Positions 16,128-32,880 of a DNA stretch of 32,880 nt are shown piece after piece. The notes under the pieces are model-generated. The model ran no database searches and had not been told where the DNA came from. It worked only from the letters and a program-made list of their open reading frames with translations. How positions within the stretch are numbered: position 1 is the first letter of the stretch; the number at the start of each line of letters is the position of its first letter. The DNA is from a virus. Lineage: Duplodnaviria > Heunggongvirae > Uroviricota > Caudoviricetes. Location: the IMG/VR virus record IMGVR_UViG_2548876695_000022, positions 1 through 32,880 of that record; one strand, written 5' to 3'. A program made the translations under genes and the position numbers.

Positions 16128-16136
16128 GTGAATTTG

Positions 16137-17605: not shown

Positions 17606-17644
17606 GCGCTTAAAAACTCATTCTAAAACTCAAAAGAAAAGCGC

Positions 17645-17725
17645 CGATTTAGTATCAAATAAGTTGCGTATCGGCGTTTTTCAGCGGTATCAAATGAAAT
17701 GCAAATCGGTATCAAAAAAATCGCC
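17645..17725. repeat. three direct repeats (G)GTATCAAA in the mom-distal intergenic region
   Basis: Copies start at 17652, 17686 and 17708, plus GTATCGG at 17668; candidate transposase end-binding sites of the Mu-like element or an operator for the downstream operon. Confidence 0.4.
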
Positions 17726-17747
17726 GCGCTATAAACAGCTAAAGCAG

Positions 17748-18404
17748 ATGCGGGAAACGCTGGCAAAAGCTGACCTTCCCCCGCGTAAGCGCCAGCGCCT
17801 TTTATGGCGTATTGCAAAGCTGGGCATTGTCGCAGCGGCAAAACGTCACCAGCGCCAGCAGGCGGCCCCGGACGGTACGCCGTGGGAGCCGCGCAAGCGT
17901 GGCAAAGGGAAGATGTTAAAAGGGCTGCCCAAGCTGTTGGCCGTGCGCGAAATGCCGGAGATTCAGGGGGTAAGAATTTACCTCAAGGGCGGGAACTACC
18001 GGAACGGGACGAAGCCCATCGCGGCGGGTCTGGTCGGCGCGGTCCAGCAGGACGGCGCACGGATCCAGATGAAAGCCAGTAACGCCCCGCGTAAGCCGCA
18101 GGCTGACAAGCCAGCGCTACCGCGACAGGCCAAGCGTCTGCGGGCGCTGGGTTACAAAACCCGCAAGGGCAAACGCTGGGTTAAGCCGTCCAGCAAGCAA
18201 ATCATGGAAACCATGAGCATGGCCCAGGCGGGATTACTGATTCGAAAACTGAAAGGCACACCCTCAAAACGCACATGGACCATTGATATTCCTGGGCGCG
18301 TTTTTCTGGGGGTGAGCAACGACGAATTTAACCAAATTATTGCGCGGCAAATGCAGGCAATCGGCTTCGGCTGGGACGTCAACGCGCAGCAAATCAGGGG
18401 GTAA
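17748..18404 (+). CDS. virion morphogenesis / tail completion protein (P2 gpS / Mu G-like)
   Basis: Pattern RKRQRLLWRIAK...QQAAPDGTPWEPRKRGKG...IPGRVFLGVSNDEF resembles the gpS-type tail completion family; start uncertain (ORF track begins with GTG at 17598; ATG at 17748 chosen, no strong RBS). Confidence 0.45.
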   Translation: MRETLAKADLPPRKRQRLLWRIAKLGIVAAAKRHQRQQAAPDGTPWEPRKRGKGKMLKGLPKLLAVREMPEIQGVRIYLKGGNYRNGTKPIAAGLVGAVQQDGARIQMKASNAPRKPQADKPALPRQAKRLRALGYKTRKGKRWVKPSSKQIMETMSMAQAGLLIRKLKGTPSKRTWTIDIPGRVFLGVSNDEFNQIIARQMQAIGFGWDVNAQQIRG

Positions 18405-18406
18405 AA

Positions 18407-19549
18407 ATGACCTGGCCGAATGTCAACGTCAGTCAGAAAAACCGCTTCAACGGCACAACGAACGACGTCGAGCGCGTCATCCTCTTTGTGGGTTACGGCG
18501 ACACTAACATCGGGAAAACCCAGTCGCTGAATACCGGCAGCGATCTGGATAAAGCCCTGGGCGACAAAGACAGCCCGTTAAAAAATATGGTGGCCGCAGC
18601 GGCCAATAACGCCGGTCAGAACTGGTTTGCTTACGTGCATGTGCTGGCAGAACCAGACAAGGAAGCCGAGGGCTATAAACCAGATGAAGACTGGATGAAC
18701 GCGGTCAAGATGGCCCAGAGCGTGGCATCCGTGGAAGGGGTTTTCCTGGTATTTGATACCGACGAAGTGGCAACCATCAACCGTGCAACGGAAATGCGTA
18801 TCACCTTGCAGGCTAATTATGGGCGATTTATCTGGTTTGGCCTTGCGATAGGCGGGCCGAAACAGGGCGAAGCATGGGCCGATTATGTGACGCGCCTGGC
18901 ACAACTCCAGGACGGTATTGCGTCACCGGGTGTGCAACTGGTCCCGCGTCTGTGGGGCAATGAACCCGGCGTCCTGGCCGGTCGCTTGTGTAACCGTTCG
19001 GTGACGGTGGCAGACAGCCCCGCCCGCGTTGCAACCGGCGCAGTCACCGCGCTGGGGCGTGACAAACTGCCGGTTGACGGGACGGGAGCCGAAATTGATC
19101 TGTCCGTGTTGCAGTCCCTGCAGGTGAACCGCTACAGCGTGCCGATGTGGTATCACGACTATGACGGCATCTACTGGGCTGACGGTCGCACCCTGGACGT
19201 TGAAGGCGGCGATTATCAGGTCATTGAAAACGTGCGCGTGGTTGATAAAGCATCCCGACGCGTCCGTCTGCGTGCTATCCCCAAAATTGCCGATCGTTCA
19301 CTGAACAGCACACCGGGCAGCATTGCCGCGCATGAAACCTATTTCGGCAAGCCGCTGCGTGAAATGGCGATTTCAACCCAGATCAATGGCGTCGAATTTC
19401 CGGGCGAAGTGAAGCCACCAAAGGACGGTGACATCACCATCACCTGGACCAGTAGCGAAGCGGTACAGATTTACCTTGTGGTTCGACCGTATGAGAGCGC
19501 GAAAGAAATCAGCGTCAGCATCGAACTGGACACCTCACTGGAGAGCTAA
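18407..19549 (+). CDS. putative tail sheath protein
   Basis: 380-aa ORF directly upstream of a tube-sized ORF in a tail module; assignment by size and position only. Confidence 0.45.
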   Translation: MTWPNVNVSQKNRFNGTTNDVERVILFVGYGDTNIGKTQSLNTGSDLDKALGDKDSPLKNMVAAAANNAGQNWFAYVHVLAEPDKEAEGYKPDEDWMNAVKMAQSVASVEGVFLVFDTDEVATINRATEMRITLQANYGRFIWFGLAIGGPKQGEAWADYVTRLAQLQDGIASPGVQLVPRLWGNEPGVLAGRLCNRSVTVADSPARVATGAVTALGRDKLPVDGTGAEIDLSVLQSLQVNRYSVPMWYHDYDGIYWADGRTLDVEGGDYQVIENVRVVDKASRRVRLRAIPKIADRSLNSTPGSIAAHETYFGKPLREMAISTQINGVEFPGEVKPPKDGDITITWTSSEAVQIYLVVRPYESAKEISVSIELDTSLES

Positions 19550-19552
19550 TCA

Positions 19553-20008
19553 ATGACTGAACGTATTAGCGGCGGATCGTTCGATGTGAACTACGACAGC
19601 ATCATGATTCACGTCGAAAACGCCACCGTCACCATTACGGATAACAGCGCCGTTGCGCAGTCGCGTGGCATCCCGAACGGCCACACGAAAGGGTCAGTTT
19701 CGGCGGATGTGGAAGTCGAAGTCGATTCCCAGAGCTTTAAAAAGTTTACCGCCGTTGCCCGTGCCGCAGGTTCCTGGCGAGCCATTCCGGCAAAGGACTT
19801 TTTGTTCTATGCCAATGCGGGGGATGACGAAGAAAAAATCGAGGTGTTTGGCTGTGTTCCGACGCTGTCCGACATCGTCAACATCAACCCCAACGAGGCC
19901 AGCAAAACCACGAAAAAAATTAAATTCATGGTGACAAGCCCGGACTTTGTCGCGATTGACGGCGTGCCGTACCTGTCAGCCCGTGACACTCGAGATCTGA
20001 AAGGCTGA
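19553..20008 (+). CDS. putative tail tube protein
   Basis: 151-aa ORF following the sheath-sized gene; assignment by size and position only. Confidence 0.45.
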   Translation: MTERISGGSFDVNYDSIMIHVENATVTITDNSAVAQSRGIPNGHTKGSVSADVEVEVDSQSFKKFTAVARAAGSWRAIPAKDFLFYANAGDDEEKIEVFGCVPTLSDIVNINPNEASKTTKKIKFMVTSPDFVAIDGVPYLSARDTRDLKG

Positions 20009-20012
20009 CACG

Positions 20013-20324
20013 ATGATGAACGGAGAAACGTCACTGCTTGAAAAGCTGTTGCTTATCGGGGCCGTGATCGGCCTGGGGCAACTGATGGTCAGCAATGAGC
20101 GAATCACAACCCGTCTGCTGGTCGGGCGGATGATTCTGGGATCTGCAGTCGCACCGCTGGCCGCAATCCCGCTGCTGAAATTCCCCGATATGCCGGAACT
20201 GGTCGTCATTGGGCTGGCCTGCGCCCTGGGCATTCTGGGAAGTGCGTTTATTGAGGCGGGGCTAAAGCGCTGCCTGGACATGTATATCAAGCGATGGGGG
20301 AGCAAGCGCAATGAAACTGAGTGA
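20013..20324 (+). CDS. holin (three predicted transmembrane segments)
   Basis: 103 aa with hydrophobic stretches LLLIGAVIGLGQLMV, LLVGRMILGSAVAPLAAIPLL and LVVIGLACALGILGSAFI and a charged C-terminus; immediately upstream of the endolysin. Confidence 0.6.
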   Translation: MMNGETSLLEKLLLIGAVIGLGQLMVSNERITTRLLVGRMILGSAVAPLAAIPLLKFPDMPELVVIGLACALGILGSAFIEAGLKRCLDMYIKRWGSKRNETE

Positions 20325-20649
20325 AAAACAGCAACTTTTTACGGTGATGATCGCCAGCCTGATTCATTTTGCCCAGGAAAAAGGCTATCGCCTGACGTTT
20401 GGCGAAGCGTACCGCACGCCGGAACAGGCCGCGCTTAACGCAAAAAAAGGGAGCGGCATTACTAACAGCCTGCATACCCAGCGCCTTGCGGTGGATTTTA
20501 ACCTGTTTATTAACGGCGAATACCAGACCGACAGCGCCGCATATCGCCCCCTGGGCGAATACTGGGAATCTATCGGCGGATCGTGGGGTGGACGTTTCAG
20601 TAAGCCGGACGGGAACCATTTCAGTCTTGAGCATAACGGGGTTCGCTGA
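20311..20649 (+). CDS. endolysin, peptidase M15-type zinc peptidase
   Basis: 112 aa with H...D...H zinc-site spacing (HTQRLAVDF ... DGNHFSLEH) characteristic of M15 cell-wall peptidases; overlaps the holin 3' end. Confidence 0.7.
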   Translation: MKLSEKQQLFTVMIASLIHFAQEKGYRLTFGEAYRTPEQAALNAKKGSGITNSLHTQRLAVDFNLFINGEYQTDSAAYRPLGEYWESIGGSWGGRFSKPDGNHFSLEHNGVR

Positions 20650-21032
20650 TGCGCAATTTGCTGGGTCTTTTGCTGATTCTGGCAGCTGCAATGTCAGCGG
20701 GCTGGCAGGCGCATGACTGGCACGACGCAAAGCTGAAACTCGCTGCCAGTGAAGCGGCAGAACAAACGCGCCAGATTGTTGTTGAGGTGACACAGCAGTC
20801 TGGTGAAGCGCTGGAAGCAAAACTCGCGGAGCTGAGGGCCAATGAAATTCATACGGAACGGGTTATCCGCACGGAAACCATTAAATCGGTTTTTAGCAAT
20901 GTTTGTGCTTCTGATGATTACGTCCGGTTGTTCAACGAAAGTGCAGATCAAGCCGAACGAAAATTATCAGGAAAACCAGCTGGCACTTTGCCCGGTCACG
21001 TTGCCACGTCTGGCCGGACCGACCGGAAGTGA
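20649..21032 (+). CDS. i-spanin (Rz-like)
   Basis: N-terminal transmembrane segment MRNLLGLLLILAAAMSAGW followed by a charged coiled-coil-like region; ATG overlaps the endolysin stop (TGATG). Confidence 0.6.
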   Translation: MRNLLGLLLILAAAMSAGWQAHDWHDAKLKLAASEAAEQTRQIVVEVTQQSGEALEAKLAELRANEIHTERVIRTETIKSVFSNVCASDDYVRLFNESADQAERKLSGKPAGTLPGHVATSGRTDRK

Positions 21033-21138
21033 CTTTGACGCGGCGCTGAAAGCCTACCGGCTGATGTATACCGACTGCGCCGCCCGACATAACGCCCTGG
21101 TGGGCATCATTCGACAACGTAAGGAATTAGCACAATGA
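20842..21138 (+). CDS. o-spanin (Rz1-like lipoprotein), overlapping i-spanin in the +1 frame
   Basis: Signal peptide plus lipobox-like LLMITSG-C; starts inside the i-spanin gene and extends beyond it; alternative start at 20899. Confidence 0.55.
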   Translation: MKFIRNGLSARKPLNRFLAMFVLLMITSGCSTKVQIKPNENYQENQLALCPVTLPRLAGPTGSDFDAALKAYRLMYTDCAARHNALVGIIRQRKELAQ

Positions 21139-21404
21139 GCAAATCGAAAAAAATCGCCATGACCGTGGCGGGCGTAAATCTGAGCTTTGAGCCGAATAAA
21201 ACCGCGTTCAACAACCTGCTTAACGAAATGACCATGACCAATAAAGTTGCCCCAATGGTGACGTATCTGGGCCGCATTGTTGATGCCGAGTGTAAAGAGG
21301 CGCTCAACAAGCTGATGGAAGATTATCCGGGCTGCGAAATGCAGATCGTCGAGAAGGTTAACGAAATTTACTCCCCAAAACTTGAGATCGAAGTAAAAAA
21401 CTGA
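21135..21404 (+). CDS. tail assembly chaperone (P2 gpE / lambda G-like)
   Basis: 89-aa ORF just upstream of the tape measure; ends on a slippery A_AAA_AAC heptamer with a -1 frame open to the tape-measure start. Confidence 0.6.
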   Translation: MSKSKKIAMTVAGVNLSFEPNKTAFNNLLNEMTMTNKVAPMVTYLGRIVDAECKEALNKLMEDYPGCEMQIVEKVNEIYSPKLEIEVKN

Positions 21405-21592
21405 CGGCGCGGGTAGCGGCCATTCGCACGAATGCCCTGGAGCAATACCTTGCCTTGCGCCGCTATTACCTCCCGCACGAAGACGACGACGAAGAAAGCA
21501 TCGCCCGCGCCCTGTGGCTGGATGAATATTTCGCCCAGACCCGCGCCAGTAAGACGGCGGAAGGGATAGCAATCGCATTTAACGGAAACTGA
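21395..21592 (+). other. programmed -1 ribosomal frameshift site and extension of the tail chaperone
   Basis: Heptamer A AAA AAC at 21395-21401, seven nt before the zero-frame stop; the -1 frame reads KKLTARVAAIRTNALEQYLALRRYYLPHEDDDEESIARALWLDEYFAQTRASKTAEGIAIAFNGN to a TGA at 21590-21592, 1 nt before the tape-measure ATG (21594). Confidence 0.5.
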
Positions 21593-21593
21593 T

Positions 21594-23708
21594 ATGAGCC
21601 ACCTGGATTTTACCCTGAGCCTGATCGATAAGCTGACGCGGCCATTAAAGACGGCCCAGTCTTCGCTGTCTGGCTTTGCTGAAAAATCGCAGGAGTCTTT
21701 TACAAAAATCGGGATTGGTGCGGCGGCTGTCTGGGGCGTGGCGCAGTCCATCGCGGGCGTGGTGGGTCCGGCGTATGAGATGAACGCCGCGCTTGCAGAA
21801 GTGGGTTCCAAAGGCGTAGCAGAGGACGCGCTGAAGCGTATGTCCGGCGAAGCCATGCGATTCAGTATGCGCTACGGCAAAGGGGCCGTTGATGTGGTCC
21901 GGTCAAGCTACGCGATGAAAGGCGCAATGGCGGGCCTGTCCGATCTGGACCTGCCCCGCGTTACCATCGCGGCCAATACCCTGGCCGCAGGCGTCAAGGC
22001 CAGCGGCGAAGAGGCAGGCGAATACATCGGCGCGATGGCGTCACGTTTCAACGCGGAATTGTCCAGTCTGGGGCATGTGCGTTTTGCCGAAGAGCTGGCA
22101 GGAAAAACGGCGTACATGGTGCAAAACTTCGGCGTGAAAATGCAGACCATGCAGGAGCTTATCGAGGGGACGAAAAGCGCCGGTGCTGACTTTGGCGTCA
22201 GCCTGGATGAACAGTTCGCCGTACTGGGTACGCTTTCGCGCACGCTGGGTACTGAGGCCAGCGGGATCTACGAGCAGTTTTTACGCAGCGCCCCGGCTGC
22301 CGCTGAAAAGCTGGGTATGAGCTTTGTCGATGCCACCGGAAAAATGCTGCCGATGGGCGACATTCTGCAAAAACTCCAGAACAAATACGGGCAGAGCATT
22401 GAAGGGAACGTCAAGGCACAACAGGCGCTGGATGCCGCGTTCGGTGGTGGTGCTGACGTTATCAAAAAGCTGTACGGCCAGCAGGATAAATTAAACCGCA
22501 GCATCACCGAGCTGGGCCGAAATGACGGGATGAAACGCGCCCAGGAAATGGCCGAACGAATGGCTGAGCCGTGGGAACGTATCAAAGCGACATTCTTTGC
22601 CATTCGCGTGGCGATTGGTAACACGCTGTTCCCTATCCTGTCGCCGCTGATGAACCGTATTGCCGACGTGGGGACAAAATTTGCCCGCTGGCTGGATATG
22701 TTCCCGAATATTGCCCGCTGGCTGGGTTACATCACCCTGGGCGTGCTGTCCTTCGGGTTGGCTGGGGCGGCGGTCAATATCGTGATGGGGGTCTTTGGCT
22801 TCACCATGACAGGGCTGGCCGCAATTGCAAAAGTGCTGGGCGGGGCATGGAAACTCCTGTTATGGACGCTCAACCTGTTGCGTCCGTCCCTGCTGACGAC
22901 GCGCATCGGTCTGGCTGCATTGTGGATCCAGTCAAAATTACTGGCGCTGTGGACGGGCGTCTGCCGCATCGCGCTTGCTGCATGGAATATCGCGTTAAAG
23001 GCCGGAGCCATTGCCATGCGGGTTTACGGTGCGGCGACCATGTTTGCCGGGGCGGCAATGCAACTCCTGATGAGTCCGATCACTCTGATCGTTGCCGGGC
23101 TGGCACTTCTGGCCGTGGGGGTCTGGTATGTCATCACCCACTGGGAAGAACTGGCGGCAGCAATCATGGATACGTCGGCTTTTGCCTGGGTGATGTCGGT
23201 CGCTGAACAGGTAGGCCAGGTGTTTGCGCAGGTCTGGCAGTCCATCACAGACGGCTGGGCCGTGGTGGTTGATTTCTTTGCCGGTCTTTCCCCGCTTGCC
23301 ACCTTTGAAGGGTTCGCACAAACCATCGGCGGGGTATTCAGCAAACTTTTTGACGTCCTCAAAAATACCTTTGCGTCTACCTATAACTGGATTGTCGAGA
23401 AGTTAAACAAGATCCCCGGCGTAAACATCGACCTGAAAACCGTTTCGCCACCGGCAGCGGCTGCCGTTCCGGCAAATGCGGTCATTCCTGACAGTGCTGC
23501 AGGTTCATCGAAGCTAAACAGCCCGTCCGTGCTGACGGGGAACCGAATTAATGCAGGCATCCCACGCGGCGGCCTGATGAGTCAGGTTAAAAACGACAGC
23601 AAAACCGCTGTTGATAACCGTAAAACGTGGGGCGATACCTACATCAACGCCCCCAATGGAATCACCCCGGCCCAGCTGGCTGAATGGCAGGAGCTTAACG
23701 CAGGATGA
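21594..23708 (+). CDS. tail tape measure protein
   Basis: 704 aa with a helical N-terminal region, central hydrophobic segments and position after the frameshifting chaperone. Confidence 0.8.
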   Translation: MSHLDFTLSLIDKLTRPLKTAQSSLSGFAEKSQESFTKIGIGAAAVWGVAQSIAGVVGPAYEMNAALAEVGSKGVAEDALKRMSGEAMRFSMRYGKGAVDVVRSSYAMKGAMAGLSDLDLPRVTIAANTLAAGVKASGEEAGEYIGAMASRFNAELSSLGHVRFAEELAGKTAYMVQNFGVKMQTMQELIEGTKSAGADFGVSLDEQFAVLGTLSRTLGTEASGIYEQFLRSAPAAAEKLGMSFVDATGKMLPMGDILQKLQNKYGQSIEGNVKAQQALDAAFGGGADVIKKLYGQQDKLNRSITELGRNDGMKRAQEMAERMAEPWERIKATFFAIRVAIGNTLFPILSPLMNRIADVGTKFARWLDMFPNIARWLGYITLGVLSFGLAGAAVNIVMGVFGFTMTGLAAIAKVLGGAWKLLLWTLNLLRPSLLTTRIGLAALWIQSKLLALWTGVCRIALAAWNIALKAGAIAMRVYGAATMFAGAAMQLLMSPITLIVAGLALLAVGVWYVITHWEELAAAIMDTSAFAWVMSVAEQVGQVFAQVWQSITDGWAVVVDFFAGLSPLATFEGFAQTIGGVFSKLFDVLKNTFASTYNWIVEKLNKIPGVNIDLKTVSPPAAAAVPANAVIPDSAAGSSKLNSPSVLTGNRINAGIPRGGLMSQVKNDSKTAVDNRKTWGDTYINAPNGITPAQLAEWQELNAG

Positions 23709-24040
23709 GTACCGAACCGTTATACATCGACCTTTTGATCACTGACGGCGATTTCACGCTGGACAGCGGCAACGAGCCGCGCCGTTGCGATAACCGCGAC
23801 AGCATCACCCAGGACATTATTCACAGCATTCTGGAAAGCGGTATCACCACCCGCCTGATCGGTGAACGCAGCCCGACAATGCGCGGTGACGTGCTGACGC
23901 AACTGTCCTTACTGGTGGAAAGCGACGAACGTCTGGTCCCAGGAACCATAGTGATCACCGAAGAAACCCTTTCGAGGTTGTATATCACGGCGGAAACCTA
24001 CGATTTCGGCCCTGTCAGTACAGAGGTTAACTATGACTGA
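23705..24040 (+). CDS. baseplate wedge protein (P2 gpW / T4 gp25-like)
   Basis: 111 aa, start overlaps the tape-measure stop; size and position before the J-like gene. Confidence 0.55.
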   Translation: MSTEPLYIDLLITDGDFTLDSGNEPRRCDNRDSITQDIIHSILESGITTRLIGERSPTMRGDVLTQLSLLVESDERLVPGTIVITEETLSRLYITAETYDFGPVSTEVNYD

Positions 24041-25217
24041 GAAACCCGACGTTGATTTCGAAAAGGTACTGAATGACAGCGGGATGCCCGCGACAGAGGC
24101 CGAAATTACGGCGGCATTTAAAGCCACCGTGCAGGCGGAAGGGTTCGTCACAAACACGTCGAGAATGTCACCTTTCTGGCGGCTGATTTCGAAGATTGTC
24201 ACCACGCCGGTGTTATGGCTGCGTGCGGCGCTGATCGATGTGGTTCTGCGCAATATGTTTGTTGCGACTGCCACCGGTCCCATGCTGCGCCTGCTGGCCT
24301 GGGCGGTTCATATCGAGCCTAAACCGGCCAGTGCTGCCGCTGGCGTGCTGCGATTCTTCAAGCTGAATGCGGCGGATGTGGTCGTCGTGCCTGCCGGAAC
24401 ACTGGTGCAAACAGAGCGCATTAACGGCGTGGTTTACGTGCTGGCCGTGAATGAAGACGTGACACTGCCTGCCGGGGTTGAAAGCGGGCTGGTTCCCGTC
24501 ACGGCGACCGGCACCGGCAGCGGCTATAACCTTGCGCCAGGCTATTACCGGATCTTACCTGTTGCAGTAGCTGGAATCGCCAGCGCGGTCAATGAGGACG
24601 AATGGCTGATTACGCCAGGGGCTAACGAGGAAAGCGACGACGAGCTGCGCGACCGCACCCGCAACCAGTTTAATCTGGTGGGGAATTACCACTCTGACGC
24701 TATCTACCGCAGCATGATTGCCAGCGTGCTGGGCCTGAGCATTGATCGCATCTACTTTTTGCACGATGCCCCGCGTGGGCCGGGTACGGCAAATGCTTAT
24801 CTGTTACTGGACAGCGGCGAAATATCACAGCCCTTTATTGATGCGGTTAACGATTATGTGAATACCCAGGGCCACCACGGACACGGTGATGATCTGCAGT
24901 GTTATGCCATGCCGGAAACCAGTCACACCCTGGCGGTTACTGTCTATGTCAAAAGCGTGGAAAACATGGAAGCGGAAGACCTGAGCGCGTTAAAAACCGG
25001 TATTACCGACCTGATTCGTTGCGCGTTTCGCGAGAACGCCAATTACGACGTTAAAAAGACGCAGCCCTATTCGCGCTATTCCTTTTCGAATCTGGGCCGC
25101 GAGATCCACAAGGCTTTTCCGGTTGTCGATTCACTGCATTTTTCACTAACGGATATTGTCAGCGAACTGTCGGTCCCGCGCCTGTCAGGGTTAACGGTGG
25201 AGATTGAAAATGACTGA
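24033..25217 (+). CDS. baseplate J-like protein
   Basis: 394 aa between the W-like and I-like genes, as in the P2 V-W-J-I-H-G operon. Confidence 0.6.
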   Translation: MTEKPDVDFEKVLNDSGMPATEAEITAAFKATVQAEGFVTNTSRMSPFWRLISKIVTTPVLWLRAALIDVVLRNMFVATATGPMLRLLAWAVHIEPKPASAAAGVLRFFKLNAADVVVVPAGTLVQTERINGVVYVLAVNEDVTLPAGVESGLVPVTATGTGSGYNLAPGYYRILPVAVAGIASAVNEDEWLITPGANEESDDELRDRTRNQFNLVGNYHSDAIYRSMIASVLGLSIDRIYFLHDAPRGPGTANAYLLLDSGEISQPFIDAVNDYVNTQGHHGHGDDLQCYAMPETSHTLAVTVYVKSVENMEAEDLSALKTGITDLIRCAFRENANYDVKKTQPYSRYSFSNLGREIHKAFPVVDSLHFSLTDIVSELSVPRLSGLTVEIEND

Positions 25218-25803
25218 GTTTTCGAAGTTGCTTTCCGGTCTGAAATTGCCGTCGTGGCTGAACAAAGGCGACCCCGCCAGGCTGTTGCGTGGCAGCGTGA
25301 AGTTCTGGTCGCAGGTGTACGGGTGGATCACCTGGCCGTTAAAGCAGTTTGACCCGCTGGTTTGCCCTGAGCCGCTGTTGAACCTGATTGCCTGGGAGCG
25401 CGACATCGATCGGTTTAAGGGGGAGCCGCTCGACATCTTCCGCAAGCGGGTGAGTTACGCATTTATCAATGCGCAGCAGGCCGGAGAGGTGGCGGGCTTT
25501 ATTGCCATTTTTGAGCGACTGGGGATTGGTTACGTTGAATTACTGGAACGGCAGGACGGACTCGACTGGGACGTGATTGTCGTTCGAGTGACAAGCAGCC
25601 AGGTTGCGGAAAATGGCGATCTCCTGCTGGAAATCATTCGCAAATATGGGCGCACATGCCGCCGTTACCAGTTTGAAGTAATCGACACCCTGCCACTGAA
25701 TATCAATATTGGCTGGTATCAGGGGGAATATATTTGCTGGCCTGCCACCCTGGGCGATGTGAATAACCAGTCAGAAGCAACATATAGCGCAAGTTTGAAG
25801 TAG
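25210..25803 (+). CDS. tail protein I-like (P2 gpI)
   Basis: Motif [16 protein letters not shown] resembles P2 gpI CPANLLPWLAWAFSVD; ATG at 25210 with GGTGGAG RBS (ORF track begins at TTG 25204). Confidence 0.6.
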
Positions 25804-25814
25804 AGGGAATATTA

Positions 25815-27779
25815 ATGTCACAGGCCGTCATTACAAAAGCATTTGCAGAGTGGAAAGCCCAGCAGGCAATTAATAACCAGCCCGTCACGCTGGATGAGTT
25901 TATTTTTGCTTATATTCCGGGGCTGGATGCTGACAAGCCGATTAATAATACTGAAACAACGCCAGCGGAAGATAAAATAGTTTGTCGTCAGGCGGTGAAT
26001 AAAGCCGGTGTTGTGAATGAAAACTCTGTCGTTTATTCCGTTACCCTGGGGGCGGATGTGGGCGATTTTGATTTCAACTGGATCGGGCTGGCAAATAAGG
26101 CAACGGGTACACTGGCGATGATTATTCACGCCCCGACCCAACGAAAAATTAAAAACGCAGACGGTCAGCAGGGAAACGTTCTTGTTCGTTCCATGCTGAT
26201 GGAATACAGCGGAGCCAGGGAAGCGACCGAAATTAACACTCCGGCAGAGACATGGCAGATTGATTTTACTGCCCGACTGGTGGGAATGGATGAACGCCAG
26301 CGCCGGGAAAATATCGATCTGTATGGCGCAGCGGCATTTTTTGATTCGGGCTATCTGGTCGCAAAGTCCGGCAATCAGTTTTTTGTCACAAAGGGGGCGG
26401 GATATGTCGCCGGATTGCGTGCCGAATTGCCCGCAAACTTCAATATCACAGTATCCGCGAAACCGACAAAAATCTGGCTTGATGTGAGCTGGACCGGGAC
26501 GTTAACAAGCGAATGGGCTGTACAGAGCAAAATTACTGTTGCTGCAGATCTTGCCGATTATGTGCTGGGCGGTGTGCAGCATTATGTCTTTGCGGTGGCG
26601 AGTATTGATGCTGCCGGAAATATCACTGACCTGCGCCCGAAAGGCACGCTAAATGACCAGGCGGCCAGCGATGCGCTGAAAAAGCATGAACAATCCCGAA
26701 ATCACCCTGATGCATCAACCAGTGAAAAGGGTTTTGTGCGGTTAAGCAGTGAAACGAACAGTGATTCCGAAGCGATGGCCGTCACGCCAAAAGCATTAAA
26801 AGCGGTGAATGAGAATGCAAATGGCCGCGTTCCGGCATCACGAAAAGTGAACGGCCATGCCCTGAATGGAGATATCAATGTCACTTCACGGGATATTTTT
26901 GACGGCCAGGTTATAGCGATTGGTGCAAATAAGAATCTGGATGATTACCAGGTACCGGGGCTTTATTTTCAGGAAGCGAACAACAATACCAGTGCAGCAA
27001 TGAATTACCCGGAGAATAGCGCGGGTTCTCTGATGGTACTGAGAGGTGCCGGAGTCACTCAGGTTTATCGTGTGTACAACAGCTCGCGCAGTTATTCGCG
27101 CAGCAAGTATTCAACGCTGGCATGGACGCCGTGGATGCCAGAAGATTCTTACCCTGTCGGCGCACCTATCCCCTGGCCATCGGATGTTACCCCGACAGGG
27201 TACGCCTTAATGCAGGGGCAGCCCTTTGATAAAGCGGTCTATCCATTGCTAGCGATTGCCTATCCTGCGGGGATTATCCCGGACATGCGAGGCCAGACGA
27301 TTAAGGGTAAACCGAACGGTCGCGCGGTACTCTCGTATGAACAGGATGGTGTTATATCGCATACCCACGGAGCCAGTATTTCCGATACCGATTTGGGGAC
27401 GAAATACACCAGCTCTTTTGATTATGGTTCAAAACCAACAACCAGTTTTGACTACGGCAATAAATCCTCCACTGAGGGTGGGTGGCACGCACATAACTTT
27501 CGTTATTGCGCAACGTCTGCATACCGGGATACCCCCGGTCAGGGGCTGGGGATGCATTCGTCTAATGTTTCATGGGCGGCGGGAGATCGCATTGAGGGAA
27601 GCGGTAATCATGCTCATGTGACATGGATCGGCCCTCATGATCACTGGGTGGGTATTGGTGCGCATAACCATTATGTGGTTATGGGCTATCACGGACATAC
27701 AGCGACCGTTCATGCCGCAGGAAATGCGGAAAATACCGTTAAAAATATTGCGTTTAACTACATTGTGAGGCTTGCCTGA
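25815..27779 (+). CDS. tail fibre protein (P2 gpH-like)
   Basis: 654 aa; [52 protein letters not shown] matches the conserved P2 H motif (EHEQSRRHPDAS...KGFTQLSSATNSTSETLAATPKAVK); His-rich C-terminal region. Confidence 0.8.
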
Positions 27780-28366
27780 TGACTTTTGAAATGACCGGAG
27801 AAAACCGGACAATTACCATCTATAACCTGCGTGCTGATACAAATGAATTTATCGGGAAAAGTGATGGGTTTATCCCTGCTAATACCGGTTTGCCTGCTAA
27901 CAGTACCAATATTGCGCCACCGCCGATGAAAGCCGGTTTTGTCGCTGTATTTAATTCTGCGTCAGAAAAATGGTCACTTGTTGAAGACCATCGCGGGAAA
28001 ATTGTTTACGACATTCTCACCGGGAAATCCATCACGATTGATGAATTAGGTCAGTTACCTGACGACGTTGTTTCCGTTGCGCCGGAAGGCCATTTTGTTA
28101 AATGGAATGGTAAAAAATGGGTGCATGATGCTGACGCAGAAAAAACGGCACAGATTACACAGGCTACACAGCAAAAAGACAGTCTTCTGGCGCTGGCTGC
28201 ATCAAAAATTGCCCCATTACAGGATGCTGTTGATCTGGATATTGCAACGGAAGAGGAAACAGCGCTTTTGCTGGCGTGGAAAAAATACAGGGTTTTGATT
28301 AATCGTATTAAGCCAGAAGATGCGCCAGATATTGACTGGCCGGAGGTTCCGGGCGATGTGGCGTGA
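27779..28366 (+). CDS. tail fibre assembly chaperone (lambda Tfa / P2 gpG-like)
   Basis: 195 aa, [26 protein letters not shown]...GLPANSTNIAPP...ALLLAWKKYRVLINRIKPEDAPDIDWPEVP, highly characteristic of Tfa proteins; ATG overlaps the fibre stop. Confidence 0.85.
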   Translation: MTFEMTGENRTITIYNLRADTNEFIGKSDGFIPANTGLPANSTNIAPPPMKAGFVAVFNSASEKWSLVEDHRGKIVYDILTGKSITIDELGQLPDDVVSVAPEGHFVKWNGKKWVHDADAEKTAQITQATQQKDSLLALAASKIAPLQDAVDLDIATEEETALLLAWKKYRVLINRIKPEDAPDIDWPEVPGDVA

Positions 28367-29084
28367 GTCGGTTATAAAGATTGCTGATGATATGGGGGCG
28401 CTGGCCTGTTCAATTGTGCCAGCGCATCCCTGGGTTTACGGTCTGGGACAGAACACCGATTCAGGCGGTTATCTCAGTCCGGCCAATGCGCTGGGATACC
28501 TTGCTAAAAAGCTGTTATCCGGTGGCGGTAGCGGTAGCGGTGATGTCATCGTCATGATGGTGGCGGAGAATACCCACGATGCTTTTATGCAGGGACTGAA
28601 TAAACTGTCCACCGTATTTCCGGCCCCGGTATTTACGCAGGTAAGCCGTATGGCCGCAGCCGCCGCAGAACTCAGCACGGTAAAAATGCAGTTGCCGGTT
28701 AAAGCCGATGTATTGCCAGCCAGTGCGCCGTTATCAGTCTCAACCAACCGGCTGGCGCTGAATGCCCAGCGTGTTGCCGCCGCGCAGCTGGCCGCCGCAG
28801 TCAGTACCACCACAACAGATCTAAAAAACCAGGTGACGGGATTTATTCAGGAACGGGCCGGTTTGCTGTCCTCGCTCAGCCAGGGACTGGACGACCTGAA
28901 AGCCGCCAGTGCGAATATTTTTGCATTCAGTTACAGCGGGAGTTATGCCGTTGCTGCCGCAGAATTGCTGAAAGGCATCCCGCAAACAACGGCAGTGCAT
29001 ACCGCCGCGATGATGTTTATCGGGGATTCGTTATCTGACTTAGGGAAGATGCTACATGAGCCAGACCGCATTACTCGCGCTTGA
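28356..29084 (+). CDS. hypothetical Ala-rich protein (tail-module position)
   Basis: Start chosen at ATG 28356 with a GGAGG RBS (ORF track begins at 28320); no recognisable motif. Confidence 0.4.
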   Translation: MWRESVIKIADDMGALACSIVPAHPWVYGLGQNTDSGGYLSPANALGYLAKKLLSGGGSGSGDVIVMMVAENTHDAFMQGLNKLSTVFPAPVFTQVSRMAAAAAELSTVKMQLPVKADVLPASAPLSVSTNRLALNAQRVAAAQLAAAVSTTTTDLKNQVTGFIQERAGLLSSLSQGLDDLKAASANIFAFSYSGSYAVAAAELLKGIPQTTAVHTAAMMFIGDSLSDLGKMLHEPDRITRA

Positions 29085-29598
29085 TGGTGAAGGGATCGCC
29101 ATGCAGAACATGCTGGTTTCACCTTCCATGCAGTTTCAGGAAAAGGACCAGTCGGGCCAGACATCGAGCACGGCCAATGCTGAACAGGGTATCAAGGCCA
29201 AAGAGCTGCGCGTATCGGGTCTGGTGACATTCGACGACGAAGCCGTCTTACAGCGGCTTTTCCAGCTGGCATCCGCGACCGAAGCCAGCGGCGCACTGAA
29301 AAAGTACCGCGTCGCCAATGCGACGGCGACGGCTATCAACCTTCGTGAAGCCACGTTTACCGGTCAGATTGATGCCGTACCGCAGGAGGATCGCCTTGCC
29401 TGGCAGGTAAGTTTCACCCTGCGTGAAAAAGGCAGCGTCCCGGAAAAACGACAGGCCCGAAAAGGCAACGCGACGGCCAGCACCAAGCAAACAGGGGCAA
29501 AGGGCGCGGGTCCGGCTGCCGGAGCTGATGAGCCAGCCGACAAAATGAGCTGGTTTGAAGAAAAGGTCTTAAAGCCGGTCAACGATGCGCTGGGGTAA
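29056..29598 (+). CDS. hypothetical protein (tail-module position)
   Basis: 180-aa ORF overlapping the upstream gene end; no recognisable motif. Confidence 0.4.
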   Translation: MSQTALLALDGEGIAMQNMLVSPSMQFQEKDQSGQTSSTANAEQGIKAKELRVSGLVTFDDEAVLQRLFQLASATEASGALKKYRVANATATAINLREATFTGQIDAVPQEDRLAWQVSFTLREKGSVPEKRQARKGNATASTKQTGAKGAGPAAGADEPADKMSWFEEKVLKPVNDALG

Positions 29599-29605
29599 TT
29601 AAACG

Positions 29606-31330
29606 ATGAAACCAATTAAACGCCTGTACCTTTCCTCTGATCCGGTCCATCTGATTGACTGCAATATCGTGCTGGAGCTGAACGCGTGCGGTCGGGGGTT
29701 TATTACGGCGGGGACAGAGACAGATTACACCGGCAAAATGGTGCGTATCGATGTTGGTTATGATGGTCTGGTCCTGCGCTGGTTTACCGGGTACGTCGAA
29801 CGGTCACAGCCTGCTGATAATGGAACATGCCGGTTGTTCGTGCGTGAGCTGGTCGGCATCTTTGATAAATTGTGGCCGTGTTCTTTCCAGCATCCAACGT
29901 TGCGCCAGATTACTGACTGGATAAGTGAGCAAAGCGGGCTGACCGTCACAACGCCGGTCGGCGCTGCTTATGCAGATAAACCGATCCCCCACTTTACGCA
30001 CAGCGGCACGGGCTATCAGCTTTTTGCCAGTCTGGGCCGTGCATTTTCAGTGACGGATTATCTTTGGTATCAGTTGCCGGACGGGGATGTCTTCGTCGGC
30101 GCTGCGGAGCATAGTCTTTTTGCGGGAAAACCAGTGGAGATCCCGCACGAATTTAGCCAGGAATCGGCAGGCGGAAATTCAATGGTTGTGCCAATGATTC
30201 AGAGCCTGCGCCCGGGTGCGGAGGTAAACGGCCAGCGGCTGAACCAGGTCCGGCTAAATAACGATGACATGGCAATTACCTGGCAGCCCCGCAACAAAGC
30301 CAACGGCCAGCCATTGCAAAAATCACCCATTCAGCGGCAGATTGAAAACGCATTCCCGGAGCTGGCAAGCGGCCTGCATCTTCCAAGATTCGCTAGGGTG
30401 GAAGCGCCAAGCGAGGATGTTTCAGGGGGGGATATTGCCGATCCATTCCGCCCACGCTATGCCGTGGATCTCCAGCTGCTTGACGAAGACGGCAAGCCAG
30501 CCGCAAATACGCCGATCTATTCTGCCGTTCCACTACCTGTGCCAATGGCGGGCAGCGAGTCAGGAATGTTTCAGTTTCCGCCCCCTGGCACGCTGGTTGA
30601 AGTTGGGTTCACTGAGGGGCGGCAGGATAAGCCCTTTGTGCGTCAGATTATGGCGGAGGGTCATAACCTGCCAGCGGTTAAACCCGGTGAGCAGTTGCAG
30701 CAACAGCGCGATGGTGTATCGCAGCGCGTGACGGTTGCCGGAGACTGGGAACGCCAGACGGATCAGACAATCCGCGAAAACTCCATGACTCGCGAAGTCA
30801 CCACCGACGAAGAGATCCGCAAAGTGGTTGCCCGTGAAACTACGGTCCAGGCAACAGATAAAACAACCGTGCTTGGCACGGCCACACTTCTGGCCGGGGC
30901 GGTCGTTCATATCAGCGAGGGGGATTACAGCGTCGGCACATCCGGCAACCTGACAGTAACCTGCAGCAAGGACAATTCCGTCAGTGTTGGCCGGAACGTG
31001 AAACGGGATGTCGCGGGCAATGTTACAGACGACGTGAAAGGGGATGTCACGTCAAACGTCAGCGGCGCACTGACTGAAAAAATCAGCGGCATTCGCCGAA
31101 GTGTGGCCCAGGCGCAACAACTGATTGCCCCGGTGGTAAAGCTGGGAAGCGAAGAGATTAACGTCCTGACACTGCTCACCGACACCCTGGACGTGGTGAG
31201 GGAGCTGGCAGAGACTGCCGCATCACATACTCACCCCAATACGGGGGCCAGTGGGCAGGCGGCGCAGTTCACCGCAACGGCCAATAAAACCGGCACATTG
31301 AAAAGCAAATACGGCCCCCTGATAGCCTGA
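29606..31330 (+). CDS. baseplate hub / central spike fusion-like protein (gpD-like N-terminus, beta-helical spike-like C-terminus)
   Basis: 574 aa; C-terminal region has repetitive V-x-G-x-V-T/S segments (GRNVKRDVAGNVTDDVKGDVTSNVSG) and an HxH tip motif (SHTHPNTG), as seen in spike apices. Confidence 0.5.
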   Translation: MKPIKRLYLSSDPVHLIDCNIVLELNACGRGFITAGTETDYTGKMVRIDVGYDGLVLRWFTGYVERSQPADNGTCRLFVRELVGIFDKLWPCSFQHPTLRQITDWISEQSGLTVTTPVGAAYADKPIPHFTHSGTGYQLFASLGRAFSVTDYLWYQLPDGDVFVGAAEHSLFAGKPVEIPHEFSQESAGGNSMVVPMIQSLRPGAEVNGQRLNQVRLNNDDMAITWQPRNKANGQPLQKSPIQRQIENAFPELASGLHLPRFARVEAPSEDVSGGDIADPFRPRYAVDLQLLDEDGKPAANTPIYSAVPLPVPMAGSESGMFQFPPPGTLVEVGFTEGRQDKPFVRQIMAEGHNLPAVKPGEQLQQQRDGVSQRVTVAGDWERQTDQTIRENSMTREVTTDEEIRKVVARETTVQATDKTTVLGTATLLAGAVVHISEGDYSVGTSGNLTVTCSKDNSVSVGRNVKRDVAGNVTDDVKGDVTSNVSGALTEKISGIRRSVAQAQQLIAPVVKLGSEEINVLTLLTDTLDVVRELAETAASHTHPNTGASGQAAQFTATANKTGTLKSKYGPLIA

Positions 31331-31535
31331 CAAAAAAGCGGCATAACCGCACACCTCACCAGACACCACAGAACGCGCCACAGCAGGCGCAAAGATTAAA
31401 GGTCGCCACCGTGCGGCCTTTCTTTCGTTCGTTCAACAGCGGCCCACAGCGTAAGCGACAGCAGGCAAACGGAAGCGGATCCAGGACGGAAACGGCGCTA
31501 CACCGCACCCGCCTGCGCAGTTTGGATCATAAAAA

Positions 31536-31824
31536 TTTTGCAAAAGAAATTTTGTGCAAAGCACCCCGCCAGCCTGCGCCGCTGCTGGGCTTTTGCATCC
31601 TGCGGGCGTTGCACTCTGCGCAAAGATTTGCAGCACTTTGCAAAAGTCATCGCGCCGCCAGCTACTAACTGACTGGATAACATGATGTTTTTAAAAGGAT
31701 CGTTTTGGTTTCCGTGACGATCAAAATGATTAGGTGGTATCCGATGGTTTTCGGGGGCGGATATCGTGAAGCCTTGTGCGGTGAGGGCTGGCGGCTAGTT
31801 TGCTTTGATTTGGGTTTTGCAAAA
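31536..31824. repeat. array of palindromic TTTTGCAAAA-type motifs in a non-coding spacer
   Basis: TTTTGCAAAA at 31536-31545 and 31815-31824, TTTGCAAAAG at 31637-31646, with variants TTTTGTGCAAAG, CTTTTGCAT and GCGCAAAGATTTGCAGCA; no convincing ORF. Confidence 0.4.
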
Positions 31825-31914
31825 TGATGCACGAAGTTTTGATAAAAGGATCTCTAGCTAAGGGGGAGGGGAACGTATAAAAACCCCCGCCCTCTGGGTG
31901 ATATTTTGTTCTAT

Positions 31915-32880
31915 TTATAGAAGTTTACTTACTGAAATCAGTTTGGGTGATTTAATGCCAATCTCACATAATGTTGTATGATGTGCTTCACGCTCAGTTT
32001 CCTGATAATAGGTGGCTATCCATTCCGTATTTTCACTAACAATGCTATGTATAAAAGAAAAGTAGGGAACATCTACAGATGATAACGAATGGCCGATGAT
32101 GATGATTTCGTCTACGTTGCTGAGATTTTTAAAAAATTTAGCGCTGTCAGCAATGACTTTTTCAGTATTCTTAAAAGAACAAGTGAAGTATTTATTAATA
32201 GTCTGCTTTCCCATTTCATAAGAGTGATCGTAATTATCAGCCATACACTGACGCCACTCTTCAAGTTCTTCATCGGTTGCATTTTCGGGCGGGACTGCTT
32301 CCTTTTCTTCAAAGTTGATAGGGTCAATACCATGACCTAAAATCAACTGTTGATCTGATGATGCTTTTCCATGGATATATAAAATTTGTCTATCATCAAT
32401 ACCATAGTATTTCTGAAGAGTCTCAGTATAATTAAAACTGATAAAGATAGAGTCAGAATCGATACGCAATCTTTTATTTAAATTAAGTTCGGGGTAGTTA
32501 ACCTGCAATATAAATGACTTGAATTGTGTTAAAAGCCCTTCGGTTAAATTTTTTAGTATACGTTCCATTTCAATGCTTAATGAGCCCCAGTCCTTGTCAC
32601 GAAAATCAGGGCTGCTAATTTGGGGTAAAAGATAGCAAAACTCTTCGAGCACTGACTCTGTATCCAGACCCGCTAAGCTGTTTTCGAAATCAGACCAAAG
32701 AAAATGTTTTGACTTATCAACTGCGGAAAGTTTAGGGGGTAAGTCAGTAAATCCCATAAAATCAACCAAGTGATCGTAAATGTCTTGGTCTTTCTTCCGA
32801 AGATAATCCCCAAATGAGAAATAGCTCGTGTCAAGTTCGTGATGCAGATCAAACCCATTCCCGATGATGTATAGCTTCAT
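31915..32880 (-). CDS. AbiH-like abortive-infection protein
   Basis: 321 aa, N-terminal MKLYIIGNGFDLHHELDTSYFSFGDYL matches the AbiH-family motif as remembered; visibly AT-rich compared with the flanking phage genes; ATG is the last 3 nt of the window. Confidence 0.6.
   Translation of the reverse strand: MKLYIIGNGFDLHHELDTSYFSFGDYLRKKDQDIYDHLVDFMGFTDLPPKLSAVDKSKHFLWSDFENSLAGLDTESVLEEFCYLLPQISSPDFRDKDWGSLSIEMERILKNLTEGLLTQFKSFILQVNYPELNLNKRLRIDSDSIFISFNYTETLQKYYGIDDRQILYIHGKASSDQQLILGHGIDPINFEEKEAVPPENATDEELEEWRQCMADNYDHSYEMGKQTINKYFTCSFKNTEKVIADSAKFFKNLSNVDEIIIIGHSLSSVDVPYFSFIHSIVSENTEWIATYYQETEREAHHTTLCEIGIKSPKLISVSKLL

What the first reader, a model, noticed from the sequence alone, without database searches (positions are those of the whole stretch)
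31331..31914. Non-coding spacer with repeated palindromic TTTTGCAAAA motifs
A roughly 580-bp region with no convincing ORF contains several copies or variants of the self-complementary decamer TTTTGCAAAA, plus GC-rich inverted repeats near 31860-31895. It lies between a high-GC tail module and an AT-rich defence-like gene. Such arrays are typical of operator or iteron clusters, recombination or attachment regions, or a structured non-coding RNA.
Basis: seen in the sequence. Interest (0 to 1): 0.45.

Follow-up and report, generated by a model that had tools for sequence, protein, structure and literature searches.

The report
Phage DNA-packaging (cos) site, unannotated
The "spacer" is the cos site of an HP1-like, P2-family prophage, where the phage genome is cut and recognised for packaging; the TTTTGCAAAA repeats are most likely its terminase recognition repeats, so it is an ordinary phage part that is simply not annotated.

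Summary
All three TTTGCAAA octamers in the 32.9-kb window lie in 31537-31823. Seven TTTGCA/TGCAAA half-sites fall in 170 nt, against 0.16 expected.

The region is not an att site, an operator or iteron array, or an RNA. It is the cos region of an HP1-like Peduoviridae prophage integrated at cyaR.
- The invariant block CTACACCGCACCCGC (31498-31512) matches the 15-nt terminal repeat of Cronobacter phage ESSI-2.
- The linear records of SW5, ESSI2_ev015 and Pseudoalteromonas phage C5a also end in this block. HP1, whose cosL is annotated, starts at the aligned position.
- Synteny is the same in all: last tail gene (HP1 orf35 homologue), cos, optional cargo (here AbiH), attP, int.
- More than 120 viral contigs carry the element.
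- The repeats sit at fixed offsets from the end. They switch as a set between lineages: TTTTCA/TGAAAA in 99 unique sequences, TTTGCA/TGCAAA in 16, including a distal copy at about +320.

This pattern fits recognition sites for a phage-specific protein, most likely the small terminase subunit gpM; that step is inferred, not shown. The true att core lies 1.2 kb further right, outside the window.

It is a new member of a known kind, of low to moderate interest.

The parts
29606..31330 (+). Last gene of the late tail operon (574 aa), homologue of HP1 orf35 and ESSI-2 gp01 ('baseplate protein'). In those phages it is the last gene before the genome end.
   Evidence: BLASTP gives 41% identity over the full length to HP1 orf35 (E 5e-157) and 63% to ESSI-2 gp01. 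HP1 orf35 stops 192 nt before the right end of the genome. ESSI-2 gp01 ends 198 nt from the record end.
31398..31431 (+). Intrinsic terminator of the late (tail) operon.
   Evidence: The terminator scan finds a 9-bp stem plus a T-rich tail. The fold gives -13.7 kcal/mol, z -3.5 against shuffles. A hairpin plus T-run occupies the same place in the relatives.
31469..31495 (+). Two direct repeats ACGGAARCGG (31469-31478 and 31486-31495) immediately left of the cut block. This is the left-hand cos repeat set.
   Evidence: These are the only two exact matches in the window. Lineage-specific direct repeats sit at the same place in the relatives: HP1 CACGGAAA x3, ESSI-2 GACAAAA x2, O22:H8 prophage GACGTAA x2.
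31498..31512 (.). Predicted cosN (cohesive-end) block CTACACCGCACCCGC, followed by the palindrome CTGCGCAG (31513-31520).
   Evidence: It is identical to the 15-nt direct terminal repeat of the Cronobacter phage ESSI-2 record. SW5 ends ...CTACACCGC and starts GCACCCGCC. ESSI2_ev015 starts GCACCCGCC and ends ...GCTAC followed by Nextera adaptor. SI7 and SW3 lack exactly CTACACC. C5a has a 16-nt terminal repeat, and HP1 starts, at the aligned position. The block is invariant by construction in the >120 viral contigs, because it was the search pattern.
31536..31561 (.). Proximal repeat pair: TTTTGCAAAA (31536-31545) and TTGTGCAAAG (31552-31561), at +39 and +55 from the block start. A GATC sits at 31525-31528.
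   Evidence: The +35 to +45 site is present in 100% of GCA-class and 84% of TCA-class family members. HP1, C5a and ESSI-2 have TTTTTTCAG at +37 to +40, and P2 has it at +49.
31566..31590 (.). GC-rich dyad GCCAGC-N10-GCTGG with a conserved CGCGCC centre.
   Evidence: In the family alignment the CCAG/CUGG pairs are kept in 22-25 of 27 diverse sequences, with G-U-type changes only. The fold is not significant for its composition.
31590..31645 (.). Main repeat cluster in dyad arrangement: CTTTTGCATC (31590), TTGCAC (31609), GCGCAAAG (31618), ATTTGCAG (31626), CTTTGCAAAA (31636).
   Evidence: It is homologous column by column to ACTGAAAAGATTGAAAAGAATTTCAGTGTTTTTCAGT of the majority class. A:T changes to C:G on both arms in all 7 GCA-class rows at columns 148/176 and in 5 of them at columns 157/166.
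31666..31725 (.). Conserved distal block: CTAACTGACTGGATAAC, then TAAAAGGATC (GATC at 31698-31701), 17 nt, and a second GATC (31719-31722).
   Evidence: The architecture is conserved in all GCA-class members. GATC occurs at +200-209 in 73% and at +220-229 in 93% of them. The TCA class has GGATC-N7-GGATC directly after its cluster.
31768..31795 (.). Second GC-rich dyad (AAGCCTTG...GGGCT).
   Evidence: It is seen in most GCA-class members, for example AAGCCTTGCGGGGCAAGGCTT in L119. The fold is not significant.
31815..31852 (.). Distal repeat TTTTGCAAAA (31815-31824, +318), followed by TGATGCACG and AAAAGGATC (GATC at 31849-31852). This is the right limit of the conserved cos architecture.
   Evidence: A TTTGCA/TGCAAA copy lies at +317 to +324 in all 16 GCA-class sequences, including members whose surrounding sequence has diverged (bins). 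BLAST-level homology to SI7 stops at 31826.
31861..31896 (.). GC-rich hairpin just 3' of the AbiH stop codon. It is probably the terminator of the AbiH cassette and not part of cos.
   Evidence: The stem is 6+4 bp. It is present only in relatives that carry AbiH (L037, L048) and absent from SI7. It is not statistically unusual.
31915..32880 (-). AbiH abortive-infection gene. It is AT-rich cargo inserted between cos and attP.
   Evidence: Pfam AbiH E 2e-60, PADLOC AbiH, RefSeq annotation. SI7 has no gene here and goes straight from cos to the att arm and int.

Best explanation
Window 31440-31855 is the cos region of an HP1-like, P2-family (Peduoviridae) prophage.

Mechanism, inferred by analogy with other cos phages: during lytic growth the phage terminase (P2-type gpP large subunit and gpM small subunit, encoded in the head module of the same prophage) recognises this region. 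It then introduces staggered nicks in or at the edges of the invariant block CTACACCGCACCCGC (31498-31512). This creates the cohesive ends of the virion DNA.

The resulting linear genome runs cos, AbiH cargo, attP, int, early genes, head genes, tail genes, cos.

The TTTTGCAAAA-type repeats lie to the right of the cut (at +39, +55, +92, +111, +121, +129, +139 and +318). The ACGGAARCGG repeats lie to the left. Together they are the sequence-specific recognition elements, analogous to lambda cosB, most likely bound by the small terminase subunit.

Their sequence has switched as a set from the family-typical TTTTCA/TGAAAA to TTTGCA/TGCAAA in this lineage.

Shown here: virion-DNA termini of related phages map to the block; synteny with HP1; conserved positions of the repeats; the switch of the whole repeat set.

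Inferred, not shown: that terminase, and gpM specifically, binds the repeats; the exact nick positions; the overhang length and polarity.
For: 1. Termini. The ESSI-2 record has the 15-nt repeat CTACACCGCACCCGC at both ends. C5a has a 16-nt repeat at the aligned place. SW5 and ESSI2_ev015 records break inside the block. SI7 and SW3 lack exactly CTACACC there.
2. HP1. Its cosL is annotated at record position 1-9, and it has the same order: orf35, end, attP, int. The orf35 homology is 41% identity, E 5e-157. PMC2771037 states that the cos sites of HP1, HP2 and phiCTX lie next to attP rather than next to the portal gene.
3. Homology. A profile of 115 unique family sequences hits the window at E 4.6e-48 and the left end of C5a at E 7.5e-15.
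4. Repeat positions measured from the end are shared: HP1 +37, +138, +148; C5a +40, +131; ESSI-2 +40 to +141; window +40 to +142.
5. Motif classes. Of the unique sequences, 99 use TTTTCA/TGAAAA and 16 use TTTGCA/TGCAAA at the same positions. Both classes occur in E. coli prophages. This argues for a phage protein rather than a host factor.
6. The distal copy at about +320 is present in 16 of 16 GCA-class members.
7. The complete prophage encodes P2-type terminase subunits. gpM of the prophage and of SI7 are 100% identical, and their cos cores are nearly identical.
Against: - No virion DNA of this prophage itself was examined.
- The public records disagree on the exact end positions: 7-, 9-, 15- and 16-nt overlaps or gaps. 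The overhang is therefore unresolved, and some of these ends may be assembly artefacts.
- HP1 and P2 cos regions are too diverged for the profile to detect. The HP1 link rests on synteny, aligned record starts and motif positions.
- Motif class tracks overall phage lineage for TerS, TerL, capsid and portal alike, so co-variation does not single out gpM as the binder.
- The conserved architecture extends about 350 bp right of the cut. That is longer than I recall for the P2 or lambda cos sites, so part of it may serve another function.
- The window lacks the prophage's terminase genes, because the window is a composite.
Confidence: 0.8

Rival explanations
1. The repeats are operators for a phage or host transcription factor. 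They would control a promoter in the spacer, for example for lysogenic-conversion cargo or for the late operon.
For: The repeats are short dyad-symmetric motifs in non-coding DNA beside a cargo slot. The conserved GATC pairs resemble Dam-sensitive regulatory regions.
Against: No sigma-70-like promoter is found in 31331-31914. Cargo content and orientation vary: AbiH on the minus strand here, Hok/Gef on the plus strand, and none in SI7. The element itself is constant. The motif is not clustered in the stretch holding the prophage's early control region, which has a single copy inside cox. The positions are fixed relative to the genome termini of related phages.
Confidence: 0.07
2. The region is part of the attachment site. 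The repeats would be integrase, Xis or Cox arm-type binding sites, or the prophage boundary.
For: It lies near the prophage end. BLAST homology with SI7 stops at 31826, right after the third decamer.
Against: The 22-bp core repeat lies at the cyaR 3' end (L001 21847-21868, equivalent to window 33046-33067) and next to int (L003 6299-6320). A different repeat, TGTGGAC/TGTGGTC, sits next to both cores and next to the SI7 int-proximal region. AbiH lies between the spacer and attR. Relatives integrated at serS and tRNA-Ile carry the same element.
Confidence: 0.02
3. The region encodes a structured non-coding RNA or a small protein.
For: It contains several inverted repeats. SI7 annotators called a 54-aa ORF (gp25) over the repeats. 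Both-side changes keep two helices.
Against: There is no Rfam hit at E<=1. The consensus fold is weak, with a covariation term of -0.53. All both-side changes come from the single TCA-to-GCA class switch, which a symmetric protein site explains equally well. The individual hairpins fold no better than shuffles. No promoter is found. A 1-nt indel between the window and SI7 breaks the gp25 frame.
Confidence: 0.04
4. The region is a secondary replication element: an iteron-type origin, a lagging-strand priming site, or a Dam/SeqA-controlled site.
For: It has repeats, GATC pairs, AT-rich tracts and a DnaA-box-like TTATCCAGT on the minus strand at 31673-31681.
Against: These phages encode a P2 A-type replication endonuclease. 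In P2 the origin is a nick site inside gene A (annotated in the P2 record). No initiator gene adjoins the spacer. The genome ends of relatives map here.
Confidence: 0.04

Closest known systems
cos site of Haemophilus phage HP1 and the HP1-like Peduoviridae (cos next to attP)
   Same: The genome position is the same: directly after the orf35-type last tail gene and before attP-int. Pyrimidine-rich end blocks align (HP1 TCCTTCCCCACC, window CTACACCGCACC). Both have direct repeats of an ACGGAAA type on the left. Both have TTTTCA-type repeats at about +40 and +130 to +150 on the right (PMC2771037).
   Different: The sequence has diverged beyond profile detection. The window lineage uses TTTGCA/TGCAAA instead of TTTTCA/TGAAAA. 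It also has an extra conserved distal module reaching +350 and a cargo gene (AbiH) between cos and attP.
Genome termini of Cronobacter phage ESSI-2 (Seongnamvirus) and Salmonella phages SI7, SW3 and SW5 (Irrigatiovirus)
   Same: The 15-nt block is identical to the ESSI-2 terminal repeat. SI7 is 92% identical across window 31200-31826, and its gpM is 100% identical to that of the complete prophage.
   Different: ESSI-2 belongs to the TTTTCA class. SI7 lacks the AbiH cargo and integrates elsewhere. I found no paper that describes this cos sequence: a full-text search for the block returned nothing.
Phage P2 cos (19-nt cohesive ends next to portal gene Q)
   Same: The terminase type is the same (gpP/gpM). 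A G+C-rich cohesive block is followed by TGCGCGC and a TTTTTTCAG at +49.
   Different: In P2, cos lies beside Q and old/tin, not beside attP. The cohesive sequence differs, only one TTTTCA copy is present, and the profile does not detect it.
Lambda cos (cosQ-cosN-cosB with gpNu1 R sites and an IHF site); comparison from established knowledge, not tested here
   Same: The logic is the same: a nicking site flanked on one side by several copies of a small-terminase recognition repeat.
   Different: The sequences and terminase small subunits are unrelated. No IHF consensus is present in the window. The repeat array is longer and dyad-arranged.

Membership tests
cos site of HP1-like P2-family phages | The physical ends of virion DNA map to the site. 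| tested here: met
   Met for relatives that carry the same block: ESSI-2 (15-nt terminal repeat), C5a (16-nt), SW5 and ESSI2_ev015 (record ends inside the block), and HP1 (annotated cosL at the aligned position). Virion DNA of this prophage itself could not be examined.
cos site of HP1-like P2-family phages | Position between the last tail gene (orf35 homologue) and attP/int. | tested here: met
   The 574-aa gene stops at 31330 and the block starts at 31498. attR lies at window-equivalent 33046-33067, with AbiH in between. HP1 and ESSI-2 have the same order.
cos site of HP1-like P2-family phages | Sequence homology to the cos region of a phage with defined ends. | tested here: met
   The 15 nt are identical to the ESSI-2 terminal repeat. 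The family profile hits the window at E 4.6e-48 and the C5a left end at E 7.5e-15. HP1 and P2 are not detected by the profile.
cos site of HP1-like P2-family phages | Cognate P2-type terminase (gpP and gpM) encoded by the same phage. | tested here: met
   Both are present in the complete prophage NZ_CP027388.1, which is 100% identical to window 17734-32880. They are absent from the window, whose left 17.7 kb comes from another element.
cos site of HP1-like P2-family phages | Defined staggered nick positions and cohesive overhang. | not testable with these tools
   The public records give inconsistent overlaps or gaps of 7, 9, 15 and 16 nt. Run-off sequencing of virion DNA is needed.
cos site of HP1-like P2-family phages | The repeats are bound by terminase (cosB-like function). 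| not testable with these tools
   This is inferred from fixed positions relative to the end and from the switch of the whole repeat set. No binding data exist.
Phage attachment site (attP/attR) | Core sequence repeated at both prophage ends, with integrase arm sites nearby. | tested here: not met
   The 22-bp core and the TGTGGAC/TGTGGTC repeats lie elsewhere: L003 6299-6320 and L001 21847-21868.
Known structured RNA family (Rfam) | Covariance-model match, or covariation-supported structure with a transcription unit. | tested here: not met
   No hit at E<=1 in the spacer. The alifold consensus is weak. No promoter is found.
Immunity or early operator array | The same motif at the phage's early promoters. 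| tested here: not met
   There is one TTTGCAAA in the 20-kb stretch that includes the early region, inside the cox CDS, and no cluster.

The most novel reading that the evidence does not exclude
The extended (about 350-bp) cos architecture is more than a simple cosN plus cosB. The switch of the whole repeat set (TTTTCA to TTTGCA at every site, including a distal site about 320 bp away) would mark a change of terminase DNA-recognition specificity. This would create packaging-incompatibility groups among co-resident E. coli prophages and any satellites that copy their cos. The positionally conserved GATC pairs, in phages that encode their own Dam methylases, would make cos cleavage methylation-dependent, as I recall for the P1 pac site.
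Probability: 0.2. Interest if true: 0.5.

Novelty: new member of a known kind. Interest (0 to 1): 0.3.

Why it matters
- It explains a conserved, unannotated 500-bp "spacer" found in more than 120 viral contigs and in several RefSeq phage genomes. In some of these it is mis-annotated as a hypothetical protein, or lost or garbled at record ends.
- Knowing the cos position fixes the true linear map of these phages: cos, cargo, attP, int, early genes, head genes, tail genes, cos.
- It shows that the defence or toxin cargo slot (AbiH here; Hok/Gef and others elsewhere) sits at the very left end of the packaged DNA.
- The two motif classes offer a natural system for studying how small-terminase/cos specificity evolves.
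- It is not a new kind of element.

Tried and rejected
- Att-site idea. I located cyaR with Rfam and the 22-bp core at both prophage ends. The spacer is not att.
- Rfam scan of 30800-32880 at E<=1. Only a spurious snoRNA hit inside AbiH.
- Promoter scan. Nothing in the spacer.
- IHF consensus WATCAANNNNTTR. No match in the window.
- Sigma-54, PurR/LacI-type, CytR and DnaA-box resemblances, considered by eye. None fits, and none was pursued.
- Correlating motif class with TerS. All four head and packaging proteins give the same grouping, so the test is uninformative about the binder.
- Profile search for HP1 and P2 cos. Not detected.
- Literature searches for the block sequence, for vB_YenM_324 and for ESSI-2 cos. 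No description found.
- I first assumed the whole window was the cyaR prophage. That was wrong: coordinates left of 17734 belong to another element.
- Survey of cargo ORFs downstream of cos in the IMG/VR loci. Too few loci reached an integrase to be useful.
- The 7.8-kb 'Salmonella phage S.Kent 1-2-1' record carrying the element is a low-coverage assembly node, not evidence of a satellite.

Full report
**Observation.** The spacer 31331-31914 lies between a 574-aa tail gene (29606-31330, plus strand) and an AbiH gene (31915-32880, minus strand). TTTTGCAAAA is exact at 31536 and 31815 and has one mismatch at 31636. The decamer count over the whole window is not significant by itself. However, all three TTTGCAAA octamers of the 32.9-kb window fall within 290 nt. 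The half-site hexamers TTTGCA/TGCAAA occur 7 times in 170 nt, against 0.16 expected (P ~5e-10), and none of 20,000 local shuffles reached that number. The GC-rich inverted repeat at 31861-31896 is real but unremarkable.

**Context.** Window 17734-32880 is 100% identical to a prophage in E. coli 2011C-4251 and 18 other complete E. coli genomes. That prophage is P2-family, with a P2-type capsid, gpM, terminase, portal, Ogr-like regulator, Cox, A-type replication endonuclease and integrase. It sits between yegR and cyaR-yegQ. Rfam finds CyaR 170 nt beyond the AbiH start.

A 22-bp exact repeat, AAAAAATAAGCCCGTGTAAGGG, lies at the CyaR 3' end and next to int. TGTGGAC/TGTGGTC heptamers lie near both copies. 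attR is therefore at window-equivalent 33046-33067, outside the window. AbiH is inside the prophage, and the spacer is not the attachment site.

**A conserved family.** The spacer is 92% identical to Salmonella phages SI7, SW3 and SW5 (Irrigatiovirus) up to 31826. In SI7 the att arm and int follow directly, so AbiH is inserted cargo. A core of about 170 nt (31478-31650) recurs at 70-83% identity downstream of the homologous last tail gene in other E. coli prophages. These are integrated at other sites (near serS, at tRNA-Ile) and in Yersinia phage vB_YenM_324. Variable AT-rich cargo always follows.

The 115 unique sequences share one architecture:
- left-hand direct repeats;
- an invariant block CTACACCGCACCCGC;
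- a repeat at about +40;
- a CCAG...CTGG dyad;
- a dyad-arranged cluster of four to five repeats at +110 to +145;
- GATC pairs.

In 99 sequences the repeat is TTTTCA/TGAAAA. In 16, including the window, every copy is TTTGCA/TGCAAA. All 16 also carry a distal copy at +317 to +324, even where the surrounding sequence has diverged.

**What it is.** The invariant block coincides with the physical ends of related phage genomes.
- The linear record of Cronobacter phage ESSI-2 carries CTACACCGCACCCGC at both ends.
- Pseudoalteromonas phage C5a has a 16-nt terminal repeat at the aligned place. The family profile matches its left end at E 7.5e-15.
- SW5 ends ...CTACACCGC and begins GCACCCGCC.
- ESSI2_ev015 begins GCACCCGCC. 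Its other end is ...GCTAC followed by a Nextera adaptor.
- SI7 and SW3, opened elsewhere, lack exactly CTACACC.
- HP1, whose cosL is annotated at position 1-9, starts at the aligned position. It has the same synteny: orf33-34-35, end, attP, int.

The window's 574-aa protein is 41% identical over its full length to HP1 orf35 and 63% identical to ESSI-2 gp01. Lavigne et al. (PMC2771037) state that the cos sites of HP1, HP2 and phiCTX lie next to attP rather than next to the portal gene as in P2. Repeat positions measured from the end are shared among HP1, C5a, ESSI-2 and the window. P2 cos itself has TGCGCGC and a TTTTTTCAG after its 19-nt end.

**Mechanism.** I conclude that the spacer is the cos region.
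- 31398-31431 is the late-operon terminator (z -3.5).
- 31469-31495 holds the two left repeats ACGGAARCGG, the only exact copies in the window.
- 31498-31512 is the nicking block.
- 31536-31852 holds the right-hand recognition array.

By analogy with lambda cosB (established knowledge), the repeats are most likely bound by the small terminase subunit gpM. The switch of the whole repeat set, seen in prophages of the same host species, argues for a phage-specific protein rather than a host factor.

This step is inferred. TerS, TerL, capsid and portal all group the GCA-class phages together, so co-variation does not identify the binder. Nick positions and overhang cannot be resolved, because the records disagree (7, 9, 15 and 16 nt). 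From memory, HP1 has short 5' pyrimidine-rich overhangs. That would fit the 7-nt CTACACC missing from SI7 and SW3.

**Rivals.**
- Operator array: no promoter, cargo orientation varies, and there is no motif cluster in the early region.
- att site: refuted, as above.
- RNA or peptide: no Rfam hit and a weak consensus fold whose both-side changes all derive from the single class switch. The hairpins fold no better than shuffles, and an indel breaks the SI7 gp25 frame.
- Origin: these phages use an A-type nickase, whose ori is intragenic in P2.

**Novelty and verdict.** This is a known kind of element, the cos site of an HP1-like peduovirus, in a lineage where I found no published description. 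It has a neat lineage-specific change of the recognition repeat and an unusually long conserved right arm with positionally conserved GATC sites. I rate it a new member of a known kind, with interest 0.3.

Noticed in passing
window 17733/17734: The window is a composite. Positions 1-17733 match (99.7%) the tail region of a different myovirus-type prophage (tape measure, DUF6645, sheath, DNA circularization protein, baseplate), found at other loci in 176 E. coli genomes. Positions 17734-32880 are the cyaR-integrated HP1-like prophage. No complete E. coli genome in the collection has the two parts joined. The junction is therefore an assembly or scaffolding chimera, or a rare recombinant. As a result, the window lacks this phage's own head and terminase genes.
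   Followed up: partly
L001 21847-21935 (window-equivalent 33046-33134, just outside the window): The prophage is integrated into the 3' end (terminator) of the sRNA gene cyaR. The 22-bp att core regenerates the CyaR 3' end. E. coli K-12 is known (from memory) to carry a P2-remnant (ogrK-yegZ) at the same place.
   Followed up: partly
window 31915-32880; L005 4135-5666; L139 297-2049; L007 4341-7978: The slot between cos and attP is a variable cargo position at the extreme left end of the packaged genome. It holds AbiH here. In an O22:H8 prophage it holds three tandem Hok/Gef toxin genes. In ESSI2_ev015 it holds a serine acetyltransferase and small ORFs. In strain Combat13F7 it holds DUF6338 and other genes. 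In SI7 it is empty.
   Followed up: partly
L138 1-50 (NC_049395.1 record start): The RefSeq record of Escherichia phage ESSI2_ev015 retains about 48 nt of non-phage sequence at one end. It starts with the Nextera mosaic-end sequence CTGTCTCTTATACACATCT, directly after ...ACGGCGCTAC of the cos block. This is adaptor contamination at the genome terminus.
   Followed up: no
L002 20297-20303 region (SI7) and L129 ~222 (SW3), against window 31498-31504: The SI7 and SW3 'complete genome' records lack the 7 nt CTACACC. These are present in the prophage, in SW5 and in all other family members. The gap is probably a loss at the cohesive end during assembly or circularisation. The SI7 portal gene is also split across the record ends.
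   Followed up: partly
L007 (NZ_CP019245.1 76371-84476): In E. coli Combat13F7, int-CI-CII-Fil is followed directly by a 579-aa fused 'hypothetical protein', then cos and cargo. This looks like a deletion remnant of such a prophage that has lost its replication, head and most tail genes but kept cos.
   Followed up: no
window 31331-31397: The 65 nt after the tail-gene stop codon are strongly C- and A-rich and G-poor on the plus strand (AT skew +0.37 for 31001-31500). The Yersinia and other relatives show the same. This resembles a Rho-utilisation-like tract ahead of the intrinsic terminator.
   Followed up: no
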